Part shown: piece by piece, positions 11,311 through 16,154 of the stretch
How positions within the stretch are numbered: position 1 is the stretch's first letter
Layout of the letters: every line of letters starts with the position of its first letter
Source of the DNA: Acidobacteriota bacterium
Lineage (GTDB): Bacteria; Acidobacteriota; Thermoanaerobaculia; Thermoanaerobaculales; Sulfomarinibacteraceae
Reading direction: 5' to 3'
Assembly (NCBI GenBank): GCA_013152895.1
Contig: JAADFN010000047.1
Span: 1,340-65,339 of the forward strand
DNA length: 64,000 nt
The notes under the pieces: model-generated
What the model saw: the letters and a program-made list of their open reading frames with translations, nothing else
Told to the model about the DNA's origin: nothing
Database searches by the model: none
Made by a program: the position numbers and the translations under genes

Positions 11311-12780
11311 CTACTGCTGCGCCATCAGGTCCTGGAACACGGGAGGCTTCGGGCTGTCCTCCTCGAGGAAGATGTGGCACGTGTCGCAATCCTGCGGAAT
11401 CGTGTGCTTCCCGTCGGCCGTGGACATCTCGTCGTCATGGCACCGCCAGCATCCTGGAAAATCCCGGTGGCCCAGGTTGTCGGGATGGGTCTTCCAGTCG
11501 GTTTTCATCGCGGGGAAATACGAGCGCCCATAGACCCGGGAAGCGGCATCTGCGGCTCGCCTCACGAGCTTCTCGCTCGCTGACCACACGGCCGGGTATT
11601 TCTGCTGGTAGTAGGTGAGGACCGCCCGCTGCACCGCGGTCATCCCCCCTTCGTGCGTCTTGTAACCCTTGTTGATCGCATCAAGAGCGATCTTCTTGAA
11701 GAAGGGAAGCTGCTGCATGTCGGGGTGCGCTGCAAGCACGTCGTCGAGGGCGTGATCCGGCTTCTTGAAGAGGTGCGTGGGCCGGTTGTGGCAGTCGATG
11801 CAGTCCATCACCCTGGCCTTGGCCTTGATCTCGGCGATCGGTGGAAGCTTGTCGCTCTTTCTCGTGTAGGTGCGGACCTGGCCGTCGGGAGTCGTGAGCT
11901 CGACCCACACGATCTTCTGCCTGTGCTTGTCTGCGGCGTAGTACATGATCTTGTTGTCCGAATAGATGTGCCACCAGTGGATGCCGCCGTGACGCCCCAG
12001 GTCCAGGCTGCCGCCACCGGTCTTGATCAGCATGGCGGTGTACGAGGCCGTGTTGTGCTCGTCGGTGTCGAAGGTCGCAAAGACCTTCAGCTTGTCGCCG
12101 TGGTGCTTCATCGGCCAGTGGCACTGTTCGCAGGTCTCTCGCGCCGGGCGCAGGTTGTGGATTGGCGTTTCGATCGGCCGGTGGTAGGTTCCCCACGCCG
12201 TTTTCCAGACCTGCCGGAGCCCGTCCAGCTTCGAGCGCACGAACCACGACGCGCCAGGACCGATGTGGCACTGGACACACCGGACGCGCGAGTGGGGCGA
12301 TTGCTGGTACGCGGTGTACTCCGGCTGCATCACTGTGTGGCACGTGGTTCCGCAGAAGCTCACCGTGTCCATCTCATCCACCGCCAGGTACGACGTGGAG
12401 CCGAGAATGATCGCGTTGACCGCAGTGAGCAACAGGACCGTCATGCCGATCTTCCGCAAGTGGGGATCGTTGAAGTCCAGTCGCGGATACACCGCGAGCT
12501 CCTCGAGGCTCGCCCCGGTGGCCAGCAGCTTCTTCCGGCGCCGCCACATGCCGATCGGCATGATGATGAGTCCGAGGACGAACAGGGCCGGAAGAATCAA
12601 ATACGCGAAAATCCCGACGTACGGGTTGCTGAAACCTCCCGAGAGCTCTGCGATCATGAAGATGATGATCGTCAACGCCGAGACCGTCGTAACGATAAAC
12701 CCGGTTATCGTGATCGGGTTGTTGGCGTAATTAAAGAGCCGCCGTATCGTGTTGTGCCTGGACCTGACCCGGTCGACCAT
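11311..12780 (-). CDS. ImcH-like inner-membrane multiheme cytochrome (NapC/NirT-type quinol dehydrogenase candidate)
   Basis: Three N-terminal TM helices, then a NapC/NirT-like segment (FCGTTCHTVMQPEY). Five CXXCH motifs (CVQCH, CEQCH, CIDCH, CWRCH, CDTCH) plus one CX3CH. A strong SD (AAGGGAGGA) precedes the ATG. Confidence 0.75.
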   Translation of the reverse strand: MVDRVRSRHNTIRRLFNYANNPITITGFIVTTVSALTIIIFMIAELSGGFSNPYVGIFAYLILPALFVLGLIIMPIGMWRRRKKLLATGASLEELAVYPRLDFNDPHLRKIGMTVLLLTAVNAIILGSTSYLAVDEMDTVSFCGTTCHTVMQPEYTAYQQSPHSRVRCVQCHIGPGASWFVRSKLDGLRQVWKTAWGTYHRPIETPIHNLRPARETCEQCHWPMKHHGDKLKVFATFDTDEHNTASYTAMLIKTGGGSLDLGRHGGIHWWHIYSDNKIMYYAADKHRQKIVWVELTTPDGQVRTYTRKSDKLPPIAEIKAKARVMDCIDCHNRPTHLFKKPDHALDDVLAAHPDMQQLPFFKKIALDAINKGYKTHEGGMTAVQRAVLTYYQQKYPAVWSASEKLVRRAADAASRVYGRSYFPAMKTDWKTHPDNLGHRDFPGCWRCHDDEMSTADGKHTIPQDCDTCHIFLEEDSPKPPVFQDLMAQQ

Positions 12781-12896
12781 AGCGTCCTCCCTTTACGAGC
12801 GCCGCCCCGTCGTCGGACGGGCGGCGGAGATTCTAGCAGGCCGGCACCACTTGCACAAACCTTCACAAATTGATGGCGTATTCGCGACGCTTCCGC

Positions 12897-15900: not shown

Positions 15901-16154
15901 CGCACCTGCGGCCGGACAAGTTCCCGATGGACCCGGTGATCTTCACGGGGAGAGTCTCGCTGGAGGAGCTCGAGCACGACAAGCCGGAGGAGTACAGGGA
16001 TCTCATGGAAATGGAGCACCCGGAGAAGAAGATCGCCGGGCCGATGCCTAGCAGGAAGCTCCGTTGGATTCGCGTATTCGGGCTCACGGCGCTGACCGTT
16101 GGATTGGCGCTCATCTTCCTGATCCTCTACGCCATGGTGTTCGGGTACCGCTGA
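12975..16154 (+). CDS. 23-heme c-type cytochrome fused to a C-terminal b-type cytochrome membrane domain (CbcL-like architecture)
   Basis: A signal peptide ([18 protein letters not shown]), 23 CXXCH motifs up to aa 745, then about 6 TM helices with conserved His ([54 protein letters not shown]), as in FdnI/HydC-type cytochrome b. The start could be ATG 12999 or 13023. Confidence 0.85.
   Translation: [1059 protein letters not shown]

What the first reader, a model, noticed from the sequence alone, without database searches (positions are those of the whole stretch)
11311..16154. Divergently transcribed ImcH-like cytochrome and a 23-heme cytochrome c fused to a cytochrome b domain (CbcL-like, greatly expanded)
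**Minus-strand gene.** It encodes 3 TM helices followed by a NapC/NirT-like heme segment and 5-6 heme sites. This is the published description of the Geobacter ImcH architecture.

**Plus-strand gene.** It encodes 1059 aa with a signal peptide, 23 CXXCH, then a multi-helix domain with paired His residues typical of FdnI/HydC-type diheme cytochrome b. That is the CbcL design (a b-type domain linked to a multiheme c domain), but with more than twice as many c-hemes as the 9 described for CbcL.

In Geobacter, ImcH and CbcL are alternative quinol oxidases used at different acceptor potentials and are not adjacent. Here candidates for both share a 195-nt divergent control region. That region holds a TTGAAA-17-TAGAGT promoter and a bulged hairpin just upstream of the ImcH-like SD.
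Basis: partly seen in the sequence, partly recalled or inferred. Interest (0 to 1): 0.65.

Follow-up and report, generated by a model that had tools for sequence, protein, structure and literature searches.

The report
Paired ImcH-like and CbcL-like membrane cytochromes

Summary
Gene A (11311-12780, minus strand) encodes a 489-aa protein with 3 TM helices, one CX3CH and five CX2CH motifs. Gene B (12975-16154, plus strand) encodes a 1059-aa protein with a signal peptide, exactly 23 CXXCH motifs and a six-helix C-terminal domain.

- **A is an ImcH-family member.** It is 39% identical over 479 aa (E 5e-135) to a Geobacter-type 507-aa ImcH. It keeps the Lys/Gln/Tyr residues reported around heme 1 but lacks the seventh heme.
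- **B belongs to the CbcL/MtoC/MtrH family.** Its b domain has the FdnI fold, and all four FdnI heme-ligand histidines align with invariant His. Its last ~630 residues are collinear with a 9-heme protein with CbcL-type heme spacing (E 1e-92). The 23 hemes arose by duplication of tetraheme modules.
- **Not new.** Zhong & Shi (2018) catalogued both families, giving 3-23 hemes for CbcL homologs, including a 23-heme protein with the same motif spacing.
- **The pairing recurs.** 21 of 61 well-flanked loci, from several phyla, have an ImcH gene within 3 kb. It usually lies on the same strand. The closest relative lacks it.
- **Regulatory features.** The B promoter-like site is conserved. The hairpin is not.

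Most likely these are two menaquinol oxidases feeding an extracellular electron-transfer chain. Verdict: new members of known kinds, interest about 0.3.

The parts
11311..12780 (-). Gene A: ImcH-family inner-membrane hexaheme c-type cytochrome (489 aa). It has 3 TM helices, CX3CH at C143 and five CX2CH motifs. It lacks the 7th heme of Geobacter ImcH. NCBI record NOZ78246.1, named 'cytochrome C'.
12975..16154 (+). Gene B: 23-heme member of the CbcL/MtoC/MtrH family (1059 aa): signal peptide, periplasmic multiheme c domain, linker helix and FdnI-type dihaem cytochrome b domain. NCBI record NOZ78247.1, 'hypothetical protein', is annotated with a start 32 codons downstream.
13113..15194 (+). B residues 47-740: periplasmic 23-heme domain built of repeated tetraheme modules. 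Residues 40-400 and 401-740 are 40% identical over 240 aa in the best local alignment (E 2e-47). There are 24 conserved non-motif His, enough for bis-His ligation.
   Evidence: DmsE/MtrA-family similarity 111.7 bits
15195..16151 (+). B residues 741-1059: TM0 (about 739-772), an R/K-rich cytoplasmic loop, four FdnI-like helices carrying H800, H842, H957 and H972, and a C-terminal helix (1026-1057). The invariant motifs YWEKFDY (912-918) and [18 protein letters not shown] lie at the cytoplasmic face.
12897..12925 (+). Sigma-70-like promoter candidate for B (TTGAAA-17-TAGAGT). The same TTGAAw-N17-TAnAGT motif sits at a similar distance upstream of the first heme codon in four relatives.
12830..12858 (-). 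Candidate promoter for A (TTGTGC-17-TAGAAT, read on the minus strand). Similar elements occur in L002, L050 and L004. This is weak and inferred by eye.
12800..12826 (-). GC-rich hairpin upstream of the Shine-Dalgarno of A (GGGAGGA at 12785-12791). It is present but not conserved and not statistically exceptional.

Best explanation
The two genes encode two different inner-membrane quinol:cytochrome c oxidoreductases. They belong to the extracellular-electron-transfer toolkit of an uncultured Acidobacteriota bacterium (NCBI MAG, locus tags GXP48_).

**Gene A** is an ImcH-family protein. Three helices anchor a periplasmic six-heme domain. Menaquinol is oxidised at the periplasmic membrane face next to heme 1 (CX3CH, with a His/Gln-type pocket and conserved Lys and Tyr). 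Protons are released to the periplasm, and electrons leave through the heme chain to periplasmic carriers.

**Gene B** is a CbcL/MtoC/MtrH-family protein. An FdnI-type dihaem b domain carries electrons across the membrane from a quinone site at the cytoplasmic face to a 23-heme periplasmic chain. That chain arose by duplication of tetraheme, MtrA/DmsE-like modules. It could reach far into, or across, the periplasm towards the candidate porin-cytochrome conduit encoded 20 kb away.

By analogy with Geobacter, the two would be co-present alternative 'gears' with different energy yield and working potential.

**Shown here (computationally):** family membership, topology, heme and ligand inventory, the modular origin of the 23 hemes, and recurrent gene linkage.

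**Inferred from published work on Geobacter, FdnI and NrfH:** the substrate, the direction of electron flow, the sides of proton release, the partners, and potential-dependent use.
For: **A belongs to the ImcH family.**
- BLASTP against the Geobacter-type ImcH on metagenome contig L084 gives 39% identity over 479 aa, E 5e-135. That protein is 507 aa with all seven motif positions equal to those listed for GSU3259. The contig was retrieved with the GSU3259 primer 3259KHis1.
- K184 and Q190 are invariant and Y199 is present in 36 of 41 family members. These correspond to K173, Q179 and Y188 of Geobacter ImcH.
- PF03264 scores above its cut-off.
- The positive-inside rule places the heme domain in the periplasm.

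**B belongs to the CbcL/MtoC/MtrH family.**
- PF01292 scores above its cut-off.
- FdnI is the only PDB sequence hit for residues 730-1059, at E 1.1e-5. H18, H57, H155 and H169 of FdnI align with invariant H800, H842, H957 and H972.
- The AlphaFold2 model has mean pLDDT 72 and helices at the expected places. Its best PDB match is 1kqf_C, with TM-score 0.73 and probability 1.00.
- B residues 431-1012 are collinear with P0329, a 626-aa, 9-heme protein with CbcL-type heme spacing: E 1e-92.
- The motif spacing is the same as in the 23-heme family member GBD91784.1 in Table S2 of PMC6295460.

**Modular growth of the heme domain.**
- The two halves align at E 2e-47, and the heme spacing is periodic.
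- Relatives carry 7, 9, 11, 13, 15, 17, 19 and 21-23 hemes.

**Functional context.**
- An ImcH-family gene lies within 3 kb of the B homolog in 21 of 61 well-flanked loci, from Acidobacteriota, Bacteroidota, Ignavibacteria, Calditrichota, Zixibacteria, Woeseiaceae and Kiritimatiellota.
- The window also holds 9-, 11-, 10- and 7-heme cytochromes and a candidate porin.
- In L005, orthologs of the decaheme and the 7-heme cytochrome lie directly beside the ImcH/B pair.

**Mechanistic analogies.**
- ImcH is electroneutral, with proton release to the periplasm (bioRxiv 10.1101/2023.05.03.539133).
- CbcL is constitutively expressed and switched off above -0.1 V. Its b domain implies proton release to the cytoplasm (bioRxiv 10.1101/2022.08.31.506072).
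Against: - No comparison with GSU0274 itself was possible. The link to CbcL rests on proteins recognised by their heme-spacing fingerprint and on the published catalogue.
- The family also contains MtoC of Fe(II) oxidisers, so the direction of electron flow is open.
- The closest relative (L087, B 80% identical, syntenic flanks UbiD ... HDAC) has no ImcH gene next to B. Another relative (L089) has none nearby either. The pair is therefore not an obligate unit.
- There is no expression, phenotype or quinone-type information for this uncultured organism.
- The length and geometry of the 23-heme chain were not measured. The inter-domain confidence of the model is low (pTM 0.43).
Confidence: 0.72

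Rival explanations
1. The proteins are the same, but electron flow through B (and perhaps through the pair) runs inward. B would act as an MtoC-type quinone reductase, receiving electrons from extracellular Fe(II), reduced sulfur minerals, electrodes or partner cells, rather than as a quinol oxidase.
For: - The CbcL/MtoC/MtrH family includes MtoC of the Fe(II) oxidisers Gallionella and Dechloromonas. Zhong & Shi found no sequence feature that separates oxidases from reductases.
- With the quinone site at the cytoplasmic face, inward electron flow plus cytoplasmic proton uptake would be an energy-conserving redox-loop half, as in Fdn-N.
Against: - ImcH-family proteins have so far been implicated only in quinol oxidation, and they are linked to B homologs in a third of loci.
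- Relatives of this lineage are discussed as possible metal reducers (Thermoanaerobaculia; PMC8528874).
- No Cyc2 or MtoAB-type oxidation marker was looked for or seen next to the pair.
Confidence: 0.18
2. A and B are quinol dehydrogenases for ordinary periplasmic respiratory reductases (nitrite, hydroxylamine, TMAO/DMSO or sulfur compounds), like NrfH, NapC, TorC or DmsE. They would not be part of extracellular electron transfer.
For: - A has weak NrfH, TorC and NapC matches.
- The heme domain of B gives weak profile and fold matches to hydroxylamine oxidoreductase and NrfB.
- JGI names some homologs 'nitrate/TMAO reductase-like tetraheme cytochrome c subunit'.
Against: - All those matches fall far below the family cut-offs: NrfH 44 against 134 bits, TorC 27.5 against 478, NapC 18.6 against 311.
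- There is no CXXCK or other catalytic heme motif.
- No NrfA, Nap, Tor or Dms catalytic gene lies in the neighbourhood.
- The match to ImcH is about 120 orders of magnitude stronger.
Confidence: 0.06
3. The two genes are functionally independent, and their adjacency in this genome is incidental. The 'shared divergent control region' would have no regulatory meaning.
For: - The closest relative has the same flanking genes but no ImcH or DUF2339 between UbiD and B. It still keeps the B promoter motif.
- In L088 an IS66 transposase lies between the two genes.
- Orientation varies among lineages.
- The hairpin and most of the intergenic sequence are not conserved.
Against: An ImcH gene within 3 kb in 34% of well-flanked loci, across several phyla, is far more than chance placement in multi-megabase genomes would give. 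In 20 of 25 cases it lies on the same strand, with gaps of 4-316 bp in most. Adjacent locus tags for cbcL and imcH also occur in Desulfuromonadales and Syntrophus MAGs in published tables.
Confidence: 0.25
4. B is the membrane (gamma) subunit of a formate dehydrogenase or hydrogenase that happens to be fused to cytochromes, as several automatic annotations suggest ('cytochrome b subunit of formate dehydrogenase').
For: The b domain is homologous to FdnI/HydC. JGI gives that name to many homologs.
Against: - No FdnG/H or hydrogenase subunit genes lie beside B here or in the relatives inspected.
- NCBIfam FdnI models score 26-30 bits against cut-offs of 116-341.
- The extra N-terminal helix and the 23 periplasmic hemes replace the catalytic subunits as the periplasmic electron partner.
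Confidence: 0.02

Closest known systems
ImcH of Geobacter sulfurreducens (GSU3259; Levar et al. 2014, PMC4251993; Pimenta et al. 2023 bioRxiv)
   Same: - Three N-terminal TM helices, and a CX3CH first heme directly after TM3.
[quoted passage not shown]
- The same order and spacing of the next five CX2CH motifs.
- The conserved Lys and Gln (invariant) and Tyr (36 of 41 sequences) around heme 1.
- 39% identity end to end with a Geobacter-type ortholog.
   Different: - 489 aa instead of 507 aa.
- The seventh heme (C487 in GSU3259) is missing, as in the 6-heme subgroup listed for Anaeromyxobacter, Geothrix and many Acidobacteria.
- E127 is replaced by Asp.
- The gene is not monocistronic and isolated as in G. 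sulfurreducens. It lies next to a CbcL-family gene and upstream of a DUF2339 gene.
CbcL of Geobacter sulfurreducens (GSU0274; Zacharoff et al. 2016; Antunes et al. 2022, PMC9129911; Joshi et al. 2022 bioRxiv)
   Same: - A single polypeptide with a periplasmic multiheme c domain.
- One linker helix.
- An FdnI/HydC-type dihaem b domain, with six TM helices in all and conserved b-heme histidines.
- No FeS, flavin or molybdopterin partner.
   Different: - 23 hemes instead of 9, and 1059 aa instead of 619 aa.
- The extra hemes come from tandem duplication of tetraheme modules.
- Only about 33% identity to proteins with CbcL-type heme spacing.
- A direct comparison with GSU0274 could not be run.
23-heme CbcL/MtoC/MtrH homolog GBD91784.1 ('fdoI', bacterium BMS3Abin04) and the 19-heme homologs of Caldithrix, Ignavibacteria, Solibacteraceae and Gemmatimonadetes (Zhong & Shi 2018, Table S2)
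   Same: The architecture is the same. The CX2CH positions of GBD91784.1, shifted by 22-26 residues, match those of B. There are six TM helices after the heme domain.
   Different: It is a different organism and sequence. Of 130 close homologs retrieved here, 99 carry 23 motifs, so the form is more common than the single published example suggests.
FdnI, gamma subunit of E. coli formate dehydrogenase-N (PDB 1KQF chain C)
   Same: - A four-helix dihaem b fold (TM-score 0.73).
- All four His ligands align.
- The stretch around the FdnI quinone site (N110-Q113 and H169; residue roles recalled from the 1KQF paper) aligns with the most conserved motifs of the B family.
   Different: - B adds a helix before and a helix after the FdnI core.
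- B is fused to its periplasmic electron partner.
- The likely direction of physiological electron flow is opposite (quinol oxidation).
MtrA/DmsE decaheme cytochromes and MtoC/MtrH of Fe(II) oxidisers and Rhodoferax
   Same: The heme domain of B gives its best NCBIfam match to the DmsE decaheme family (111.7 bits, 4 stretches). MtoC and MtrH are the 9-heme members of the same b-c fusion family.
   Different: The score is below the DmsE cut-off of 192.2. B is membrane-anchored rather than inserted in an outer-membrane porin. No mtrAB/mtoAB genes are adjacent, although a candidate porin-decaheme cluster lies 20 kb away.
NrfH / NapC / CymA quinol dehydrogenases
   Same: A shares the NapC/NirT-type module formed by TM3 and the first hemes, and the conserved Lys equivalent to NrfH K82/K83.
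   Different: A has 3 TM helices instead of 1 and 6 hemes instead of 4. Its first motif is CX3CH. Its scores fall far below the family cut-offs.

Membership tests
ImcH family | Three N-terminal transmembrane helices, with the heme domain on the periplasmic side | tested here: met
   Helices lie at 25-43, 55-73 and 111-129. The N-terminus and the 74-110 loop are R/K-rich, so they are cytoplasmic.
ImcH family | Atypical CX3CH first heme motif directly after TM3 (Levar 2014; Zhong & Shi 2018) | tested here: met
   C143-GTT-C147-H148. These residues are invariant in 41 aligned family members.
ImcH family | Five to nine further CX2CH motifs with family-typical spacing | tested here: met
   Five motifs at 168, 217, 327, 444 and 465. 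The offsets to GSU3259 are +11, +11, +15, +15 and +16.
ImcH family | Region of NapC/NirT homology | tested here: met
   PF03264 scores 37.2 bits against a cut-off of 24.1, over residues 111-201.
ImcH family | Significant full-length similarity to Geobacter ImcH | tested here: met
   39% identity over 479 aa, E 5e-135, against the 507-aa protein of L084. That protein carries the GSU3259 primer sequence and all seven GSU3259 motif positions. It is a Geobacter-type ortholog, not GSU3259 itself.
ImcH family | Conserved heme-1 pocket residues (E127, K173, Q179, Y188 of GSU3259; Pimenta 2023) | tested here: met
   A has D138, K184, Q190 and Y199. K and Q are invariant, Y is present in 36 of 41 sequences, and the acidic position is E in 29 and D in 11.
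ImcH family | Seventh heme (typical of the Geobacter clade, not of the whole family) | tested here: not met
   A ends 20 residues after the sixth motif. Published family members have 6 to 10 motifs, so this does not exclude membership.
ImcH family | Required for reduction of high-potential extracellular acceptors; electroneutral menaquinol oxidation | not testable with these tools
   This needs genetics or biochemistry.
CbcL/MtoC/MtrH family | Signal peptide plus periplasmic multiheme c domain (3-23 CX2CH) | tested here: met
   There are 23 CXXCH motifs at residues 51-712, preceded by a hydrophobic signal segment and an A/G-Q-E-N cleavage-type region conserved in homologs.
CbcL/MtoC/MtrH family | C-terminal HydC/FdnI-type b cytochrome domain, with six TM helices after the heme domain | tested here: met
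   PF01292 scores 39.8 bits against a cut-off of 30.1. FdnI 1kqf_C matches at E 1.1e-5. The AF2 helices lie at 739-772, 794-818, 835-867, 912-936, 946-976 and 1026-1057. Foldseek gives a TM-score of 0.73 to 1kqf_C.
CbcL/MtoC/MtrH family | Conserved histidine ligands for b hemes in the TM helices | tested here: met
   H800, H842, H957 and H972 align with FdnI H18, H57, H155 and H169. They are invariant in 40 homologs.
CbcL/MtoC/MtrH family | Sequence similarity to G. sulfurreducens CbcL (GSU0274) | tested here: inconclusive
   The GSU0274 sequence could not be obtained. The proxy was P0329, a 626-aa protein with 9 hemes spaced 22,25,24,24,28,25,43,28. GSU0274 has 23,25,23,24,29,28,43,28. B matches P0329 at 33% identity over 612 columns, E 1e-92. 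The b domain matches 423 cluster representatives at E<=1e-30, with 7-22 hemes.
CbcL/MtoC/MtrH family | Low-potential menaquinol oxidase activity and switch-off above -0.1 V | not testable with these tools
   This needs electrochemistry or genetics.
NrfH / NapC / TorC quinol dehydrogenases | Score above the curated family cut-off; one TM helix plus four or five hemes; a partner reductase nearby | tested here: not met
   NrfH scores 44 against 134.2, TorC 27.5 against 478.2, and NapC/NirT 18.6 against 310.6. A has 3 TM helices and 6 hemes. No reductase genes lie nearby.
DmsE/MtrA decaheme family | Score above the TIGR03508 cut-off; soluble or porin-inserted decaheme | tested here: not met
   B scores 111.7 bits against a cut-off of 192.2, in four stretches. 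B resembles these proteins module by module but is membrane-anchored.
Formate dehydrogenase gamma subunit (FdnI) | Equivalog score and adjacent FdnG/FdnH genes | tested here: not met
   TIGR01583 scores 29.6 against 115.85, and PRK10639 scores 29.3 against 341. The neighbours are UbiD, DUF2339, HDAC-type, CBS/ACT and acyl-CoA synthetase genes.

The most novel reading that the evidence does not exclude
ImcH plus a long (19-23 heme) CbcL-type b-c fusion would form a conserved, often co-transcribed 'two-gear' menaquinol-oxidase module. It would be spread across at least seven phylum-level lineages. In this module, the duplicated tetraheme modules of the CbcL-type protein would form a membrane-anchored wire long enough to bridge most of the periplasm. 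That would replace the soluble triheme shuttles used by Geobacter.

The published catalogue lists both families, but the text read here does not describe this linkage or interpret the heme-number expansion.
Probability: 0.3. Interest if true: 0.55.

Novelty: new member of a known kind. Interest (0 to 1): 0.3.

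Why it matters
- **Evidence for metal or electrode respiration.** The result adds a well-supported case that uncultured marine or hydrothermal Acidobacteriota carry both known Geobacter-type exits from the quinone pool, together with a candidate outer-membrane conduit. 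This strengthens inferences of metal or electrode respiration in this phylum.
- **Better annotation.** Public records name these genes only 'cytochrome C' and 'hypothetical protein'. The NCBI start for B probably truncates the signal peptide.
- **A testable linkage.** An ImcH gene lies within 3 kb of long CbcL-type genes in about a third of well-flanked loci. It is mostly on the same strand, including in cultured Bacteroidota (Maribellus; Draconibacterium is represented here by metagenome bins). If followed up, this would give tractable systems to test two things: whether the two oxidases really act as potential-dependent alternatives outside Geobacter, and what the extra 10-14 hemes are for.
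- **No new kind of system.** The finding does not reveal one.

Tried and rejected
1. **Retrieving GSU3259.** A metagenome scan with a 24-nt sequence spanning the imcH stop codon, assembled from Levar 2014 primers, found nothing. The second scan, with the coding primer 3259KHis1, gave six contigs. One of them (L084) carries a Geobacter-type ImcH.
2. **Retrieving GSU0274 (CbcL).** The representative search gave proteins with CbcL-type heme spacing but no organism names.
3. **Matching window proteins to published accessions.** Cluster look-ups did not return the OFV/GBD accessions. The link to the paper's tables rests on motif positions and on the Zixibacteria RBG-1 locus L047.
4. **PDB sequence search.** There is no solved structure for A. 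The full-length B profile hit only generic multiheme proteins and an unnamed 278-aa 'Cytochrome c', 28pb_A.
5. **Hairpin as a regulatory element.** Rejected as unsupported: z = -0.93 and not conserved. There is no Rfam family in 12600-13200.
6. **DUF2339 as a conserved partner.** tblastn found no hit in the related loci, although a DUF2339 gene is annotated near B in L089.
7. **Rival annotations.** The formate-dehydrogenase-subunit and nitrite- or hydroxylamine-enzyme readings were rejected on cut-offs and neighbourhood.
8. **Literature searches.** Searches for an explicit description of the 19-23 heme fusion, or of imcH-cbcL linkage, found only Zhong & Shi 2018.

Full report
**Observation**

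- Both ORFs are present exactly as described.
- Gene A (11311-12780, minus strand) encodes 489 aa. It has hydrophobic helices at 25-43, 55-73 and 111-129. It has one CX3CH motif (C143-GTT-C147-H148) and five CX2CH motifs at 168, 217, 327, 444 and 465.
- Gene B (12975-16154, plus strand) encodes 1059 aa. It has an N-terminal signal-type segment, exactly 23 CXXCH motifs between residues 51 and 712, and hydrophobic helices from residue 743 onward.
- Pfam places the NapC/NirT N-terminal region on A (37.2 bits, cut-off 24.1). It places the Ni_hydr_CYTB / cytochrome b561 family PF01292 on B residues 791-969 (39.8 bits, cut-off 30.1), together with several multiheme families.
- NCBIfam has no specific model for either protein. 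The best matches are NrfH for A (44 bits, cut-off 134) and the DmsE decaheme family for B (111.7 bits, cut-off 192). All are below threshold.
- The window is part of a 69-kb contig of an NCBI MAG labelled Acidobacteria bacterium. There A is NOZ78246.1 ('cytochrome C') and B is NOZ78247.1 ('hypothetical protein', annotated 32 codons shorter).

**Is A an ImcH?**

- The family definition in the literature is three TM helices, a CX3CH first motif next to the third helix, a NapC/NirT-like stretch, and 5-9 further CX2CH motifs (Levar et al. 2014, PMC4251993; Zhong & Shi 2018, PMC6295460). A meets all of these.
- For a direct comparison I scanned metagenome contigs with a primer designed for GSU3259 (3259KHis1). 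This recovered contig L084.
- L084 encodes a 507-aa protein ending in GKH. Its CX3CH and six CX2CH motifs sit at precisely the positions tabulated for GSU3259.
- A aligns with that protein over 479 residues at 39% identity, E 5e-135.
- Pimenta et al. (bioRxiv 10.1101/2023.05.03.539133) reported conserved residues around ImcH heme 1: H137, K173, Q179, Y188 and E127. In A these correspond to H148, K184, Q190, Y199 and D138.
- In a 41-sequence alignment, K and Q are invariant, Y is present in 36 of 41, and the acidic position is E or D in 40 of 41.
- A lacks the seventh heme of the Geobacter clade. Six-motif members are listed for Anaeromyxobacter, Geothrix and many Acidobacteria.
- The ImcH-like reading is therefore supported. 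The alternative 'nitrite or hydroxylamine enzyme' reading is not.

**Is B CbcL-like?**

- CbcL is described as a periplasmic nine-heme c domain linked to a HydC/FdnI-type dihaem b domain.
- The only PDB sequence match of B residues 730-1059 is FdnI of E. coli formate dehydrogenase-N (1kqf_C, E 1.1e-5).
- In that alignment the four heme ligands of FdnI (H18, H57, H155, H169) fall on H800, H842, H957 and H972. These are invariant in 40 homologs.
- An AlphaFold2 model built on that alignment has mean pLDDT 72.1 and pTM 0.43. It places helices at 739-772, 794-818, 835-867, 912-936, 946-976 and 1026-1057.
- The model's best PDB match is 1kqf_C, with TM-score 0.73 on the target and probability 1.00.
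- The first of these helices, followed by an R/K-rich loop, brings the chain from the periplasm to the cytoplasm. The FdnI-like core therefore has the FdnI orientation.
- The two most conserved motifs of the family are YWEKFDY at 912-918 and [18 protein letters not shown] around H972. They lie at the cytoplasmic face and align with the stretch that forms the quinone site of FdnI. The residue roles in FdnI are from my recollection of the 1KQF paper.
- I could not obtain GSU0274 itself. An exhaustive search with the b domain found 423 cluster representatives at E<=1e-30.
- These include 9-heme proteins of 615-632 aa whose heme spacing is nearly that tabulated for GSU0274.
- B residues 431-1012 are collinear with one of them, P0329: 33% identity over 612 columns, E 1e-92.

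**Origin of the 23 hemes**

- The two halves of the heme domain (40-400 and 401-740) align at 40% identity, E 2e-47.
- The motif spacing is periodic: [37,23,30,28] [28,22,30,28] [45,28,30,24] [37,24,30,28] [48,28,30,25] [30,28]. This indicates repeated tetraheme modules.
- Relatives carry 7, 9, 11, 13, 15, 17, 19, 21, 22 or 23 motifs.
- The 19-heme form is modal among 80 species-level genomes from many phyla. The 23-heme form dominates the closest 130 homologs, at 99 of 130.
- Twenty-four non-motif histidines are conserved at 80% or more, and two further ones at 78% lie in the extra module. This is enough for bis-His ligation of all 23 hemes.

**What is already known**

- Zhong & Shi (2018) searched genomes for exactly these families. 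They reported ImcH homologs in 12 phyla (19 in Acidobacteria) with 6-10 heme motifs. They reported CbcL/MtoC/MtrH homologs in 15 phyla with 3 to 23 motifs and lengths up to 1034 aa.
- Their Table S2 lists a 23-motif protein (GBD91784.1, bacterium BMS3Abin04). Its motif positions, shifted by 22-26 residues, match those of B. The table also lists many 19-motif proteins.
- 'More than twice as many hemes as CbcL' is therefore a known extreme of a known family.
- The same tables show cbcL and imcH homologs with adjacent locus tags in Desulfuromonadales and Syntrophus MAGs: A2X96_02390/02395, A2X79_01185/01190 and A2X92_08560/08565. The text passages I retrieved do not comment on this.
- In G. sulfurreducens itself the genes are far apart, and imcH is monocistronic.

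**Gene neighbourhood**

- A scan of one genome per GTDB species found at least 578 genomes encoding a relative of B. I examined the 80 best plus three contigs of the closest homologs.
- An ImcH-family gene lies within 3 kb in 25 loci. Among the 61 loci with at least 2 kb of flank on both sides, 21 have one (34%). Of the 25, thirteen lie downstream on the same strand, seven upstream on the same strand, and five upstream and divergent.
- Carriers are labelled Acidobacteriota (Thermoanaerobaculia, Holophagales, Bryobacteraceae), Bacteroidota (Draconibacterium, the isolate Maribellus sp. YY47, Prolixibacteraceae), Ignavibacteria, Calditrichota, Zixibacteria, KSB1/Deferribacteres, Woeseiaceae and Kiritimatiellota.
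- In Zixibacteria RBG-1 (L047), the ImcH homolog listed in the published Table S3 ends 4 bp before a 19-heme B homolog.
- The divergent arrangement seen in the window is confined to Thermoanaerobaculales/Sulfomarinibacteraceae-type relatives (L002, L003, L004, L050) plus one more distant case, L049, where the gap is 2.9 kb.
- The closest relative (L087, B 80% identical) has the same flanks (UbiD upstream; HDAC-type, CBS/ACT and GNAT-CoA ligase genes downstream) but no ImcH or DUF2339 gene.
- In L088 the ImcH-like gene is 2.4 kb downstream, with an IS66 transposase between. L089 has none nearby.
- The linkage is therefore real and recurrent but facultative. The 'shared control region' is a lineage-specific arrangement.

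**Regulatory elements**

- The TTGAAA-17-TAGAGT site (12897-12925) is the only sigma-70-like match in 800 nt, against 0.3 expected.
- A TTGAAw-N17-TAnAGT motif sits 190-229 nt upstream of the first heme codon in L002, L003, L050 and L087. In L087 there is no divergent gene. It is therefore best read as B's own promoter.
- On the minus strand, TTGTGC-17-TAGAAT (12858-12830) has counterparts in L002, L050 and L004 and may be A's promoter. This is a by-eye inference.
- The hairpin (12800-12826) is real, but its region folds no better than shuffles (z -0.93). It has no counterpart in relatives.
- No Rfam family matches the region.

**Mechanism**

- The shown steps are the inventories and topologies above.
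- The functional steps are inferred from characterised relatives.
  - ImcH oxidises menaquinol at a periplasmic-face site near heme 1. It releases protons to the periplasm and reduces periplasmic triheme cytochromes.
  - CbcL is expressed constitutively and is inactivated above about -0.1 V. It gives about half the growth yield. Because of its FdnI-type b domain, it is thought to release quinol protons to the cytoplasm.
- Co-location and frequent same-strand arrangement fit a model in which both oxidases are present together and redox potential selects the active one.
- The 23-heme chain, made of MtrA/DmsE-like modules, could extend on the order of 15-20 nm. This estimate extrapolates from my recollection that the ten hemes of MtrA span about 8 nm. 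It is an inference, not measured here.
- The window also encodes a 9-heme cytochrome (6137-7432), whose orthologs sit beside B homologs in about a dozen loci, and an 11-heme cytochrome (26683-28023).
- It further encodes a cluster of a 658-aa protein (signal peptide, C-terminal Phe, no Pfam match), a DmsE/MtrA-family decaheme (173 bits) and a 7-heme protein with an MtrC/MtrF domain, at 33291-37957.
- In L005, orthologs of the last two lie directly beside the ImcH/B pair.
- The direction of electron flow through B remains open, because MtoC of Fe(II) oxidisers belongs to the same family.

**Verdict**

- The element is a pair of new members of two catalogued families, in a lineage where such genes were already reported.
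- The modest new points are the quantitative evidence for ImcH/long-CbcL linkage across phyla, the modular origin of the heme expansion, and the mapping of the FdnI ligands and the conserved cytoplasmic-face motifs.
- Interest is about 0.3.

Noticed in passing
window 33291-37957 (+): Candidate outer-membrane porin-cytochrome conduit with three genes. The first is a 658-aa protein with a signal peptide, a C-terminal ...HWSF and no Pfam match, possibly a beta-barrel. The second is a 283-aa decaheme of the DmsE/MtrA family (173 bits, cut-off 192). The third is a 603-aa 7-heme protein with an MtrC/MtrF II/IV domain. In L005, orthologs of the last two lie directly upstream of the ImcH/B pair.
   Followed up: partly
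window 6137-7432 (+): A 9-heme c-type cytochrome (431 aa). Its orthologs (35-46% identity) lie next to B homologs in about 12 related loci. One example is Zixibacteria L047, with the order 9-heme, then ImcH, then the 19-heme b-c fusion. It may be a third recurrent partner.
   Followed up: partly
window 26683-28023 (+): Another multiheme cytochrome: 11 CXXCH motifs, 446 aa, with weak DmsE-family similarity. Its role and partners were not examined.
   Followed up: no
window 9404-11173 (-): A DUF2339 membrane protein gene lies 137 nt downstream of the ImcH-like gene on the same strand, so it may be co-transcribed. A DUF2339 gene is also annotated near the B homolog in L089, but tblastn found no counterpart in the 80 genome loci.
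   Followed up: partly
window 9330-12974 versus L087 3108-3509: Relative to the closest relative, which has the same UbiD and HDAC/CBS/CoA-ligase flanks, the DUF2339 and ImcH-like genes are a 3.4-kb insertion or deletion. The more distant relatives L002, L003 and L050 keep a divergent ImcH gene, so loss in the L087 lineage seems likelier than gain here.
   Followed up: partly
window 12975-13070 (B start): The NCBI record for B (NOZ78247.1, 1027 aa) starts at Val33, inside the hydrophobic core of the signal peptide. The GTG at 12975 has a GAGG Shine-Dalgarno and the same MGD start as the 80% homolog, and it keeps the whole signal peptide. The deposited start is probably wrong.
   Followed up: yes
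L002, L003, L004, L050, upstream of their B homologs: The 17-nt spacer of the B promoter (AATTCGTCACATAGAGA) is almost invariant in these four relatives although the surrounding intergenic DNA is not. This suggests an operator overlapping the promoter. The window and L087 have different spacers.
   Followed up: no
L082 1608-2546 (-) and L086 3-473 (+): These are metagenome contigs recovered with the Geobacter imcH primer. A cytochrome b protein without CXXCH motifs carries the same YWEKFDY and FIFTIHFF motifs and is 45-52% identical to the b domain of B. It lies immediately upstream of a 6-heme ImcH homolog. This is a split (non-fused) version of the pairing. Several genome loci (L040, L055, L068, L070) likewise have the b domain as a separate ORF.
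   Followed up: partly
window 16373-16450 (+): A tRNA-Glu(TTC) gene lies about 220 nt after the stop codon of B. The terminator scan (window 12500-13300 only) did not cover this stretch.
   Followed up: no
B residues 33-190 and 403-544: The best PDB sequence match of the heme domain is a recent entry, 28pb_A, a 278-aa protein named only 'Cytochrome c' (profile E 2.8e-13). Its identity could not be established with the tools.
   Followed up: no
L088 6701-7354: An IS66-family transposase gene lies between the 23-heme gene and the ImcH-like gene of a MAG labelled Kiritimatiellota. This shows recent rearrangement of the pair.
   Followed up: no
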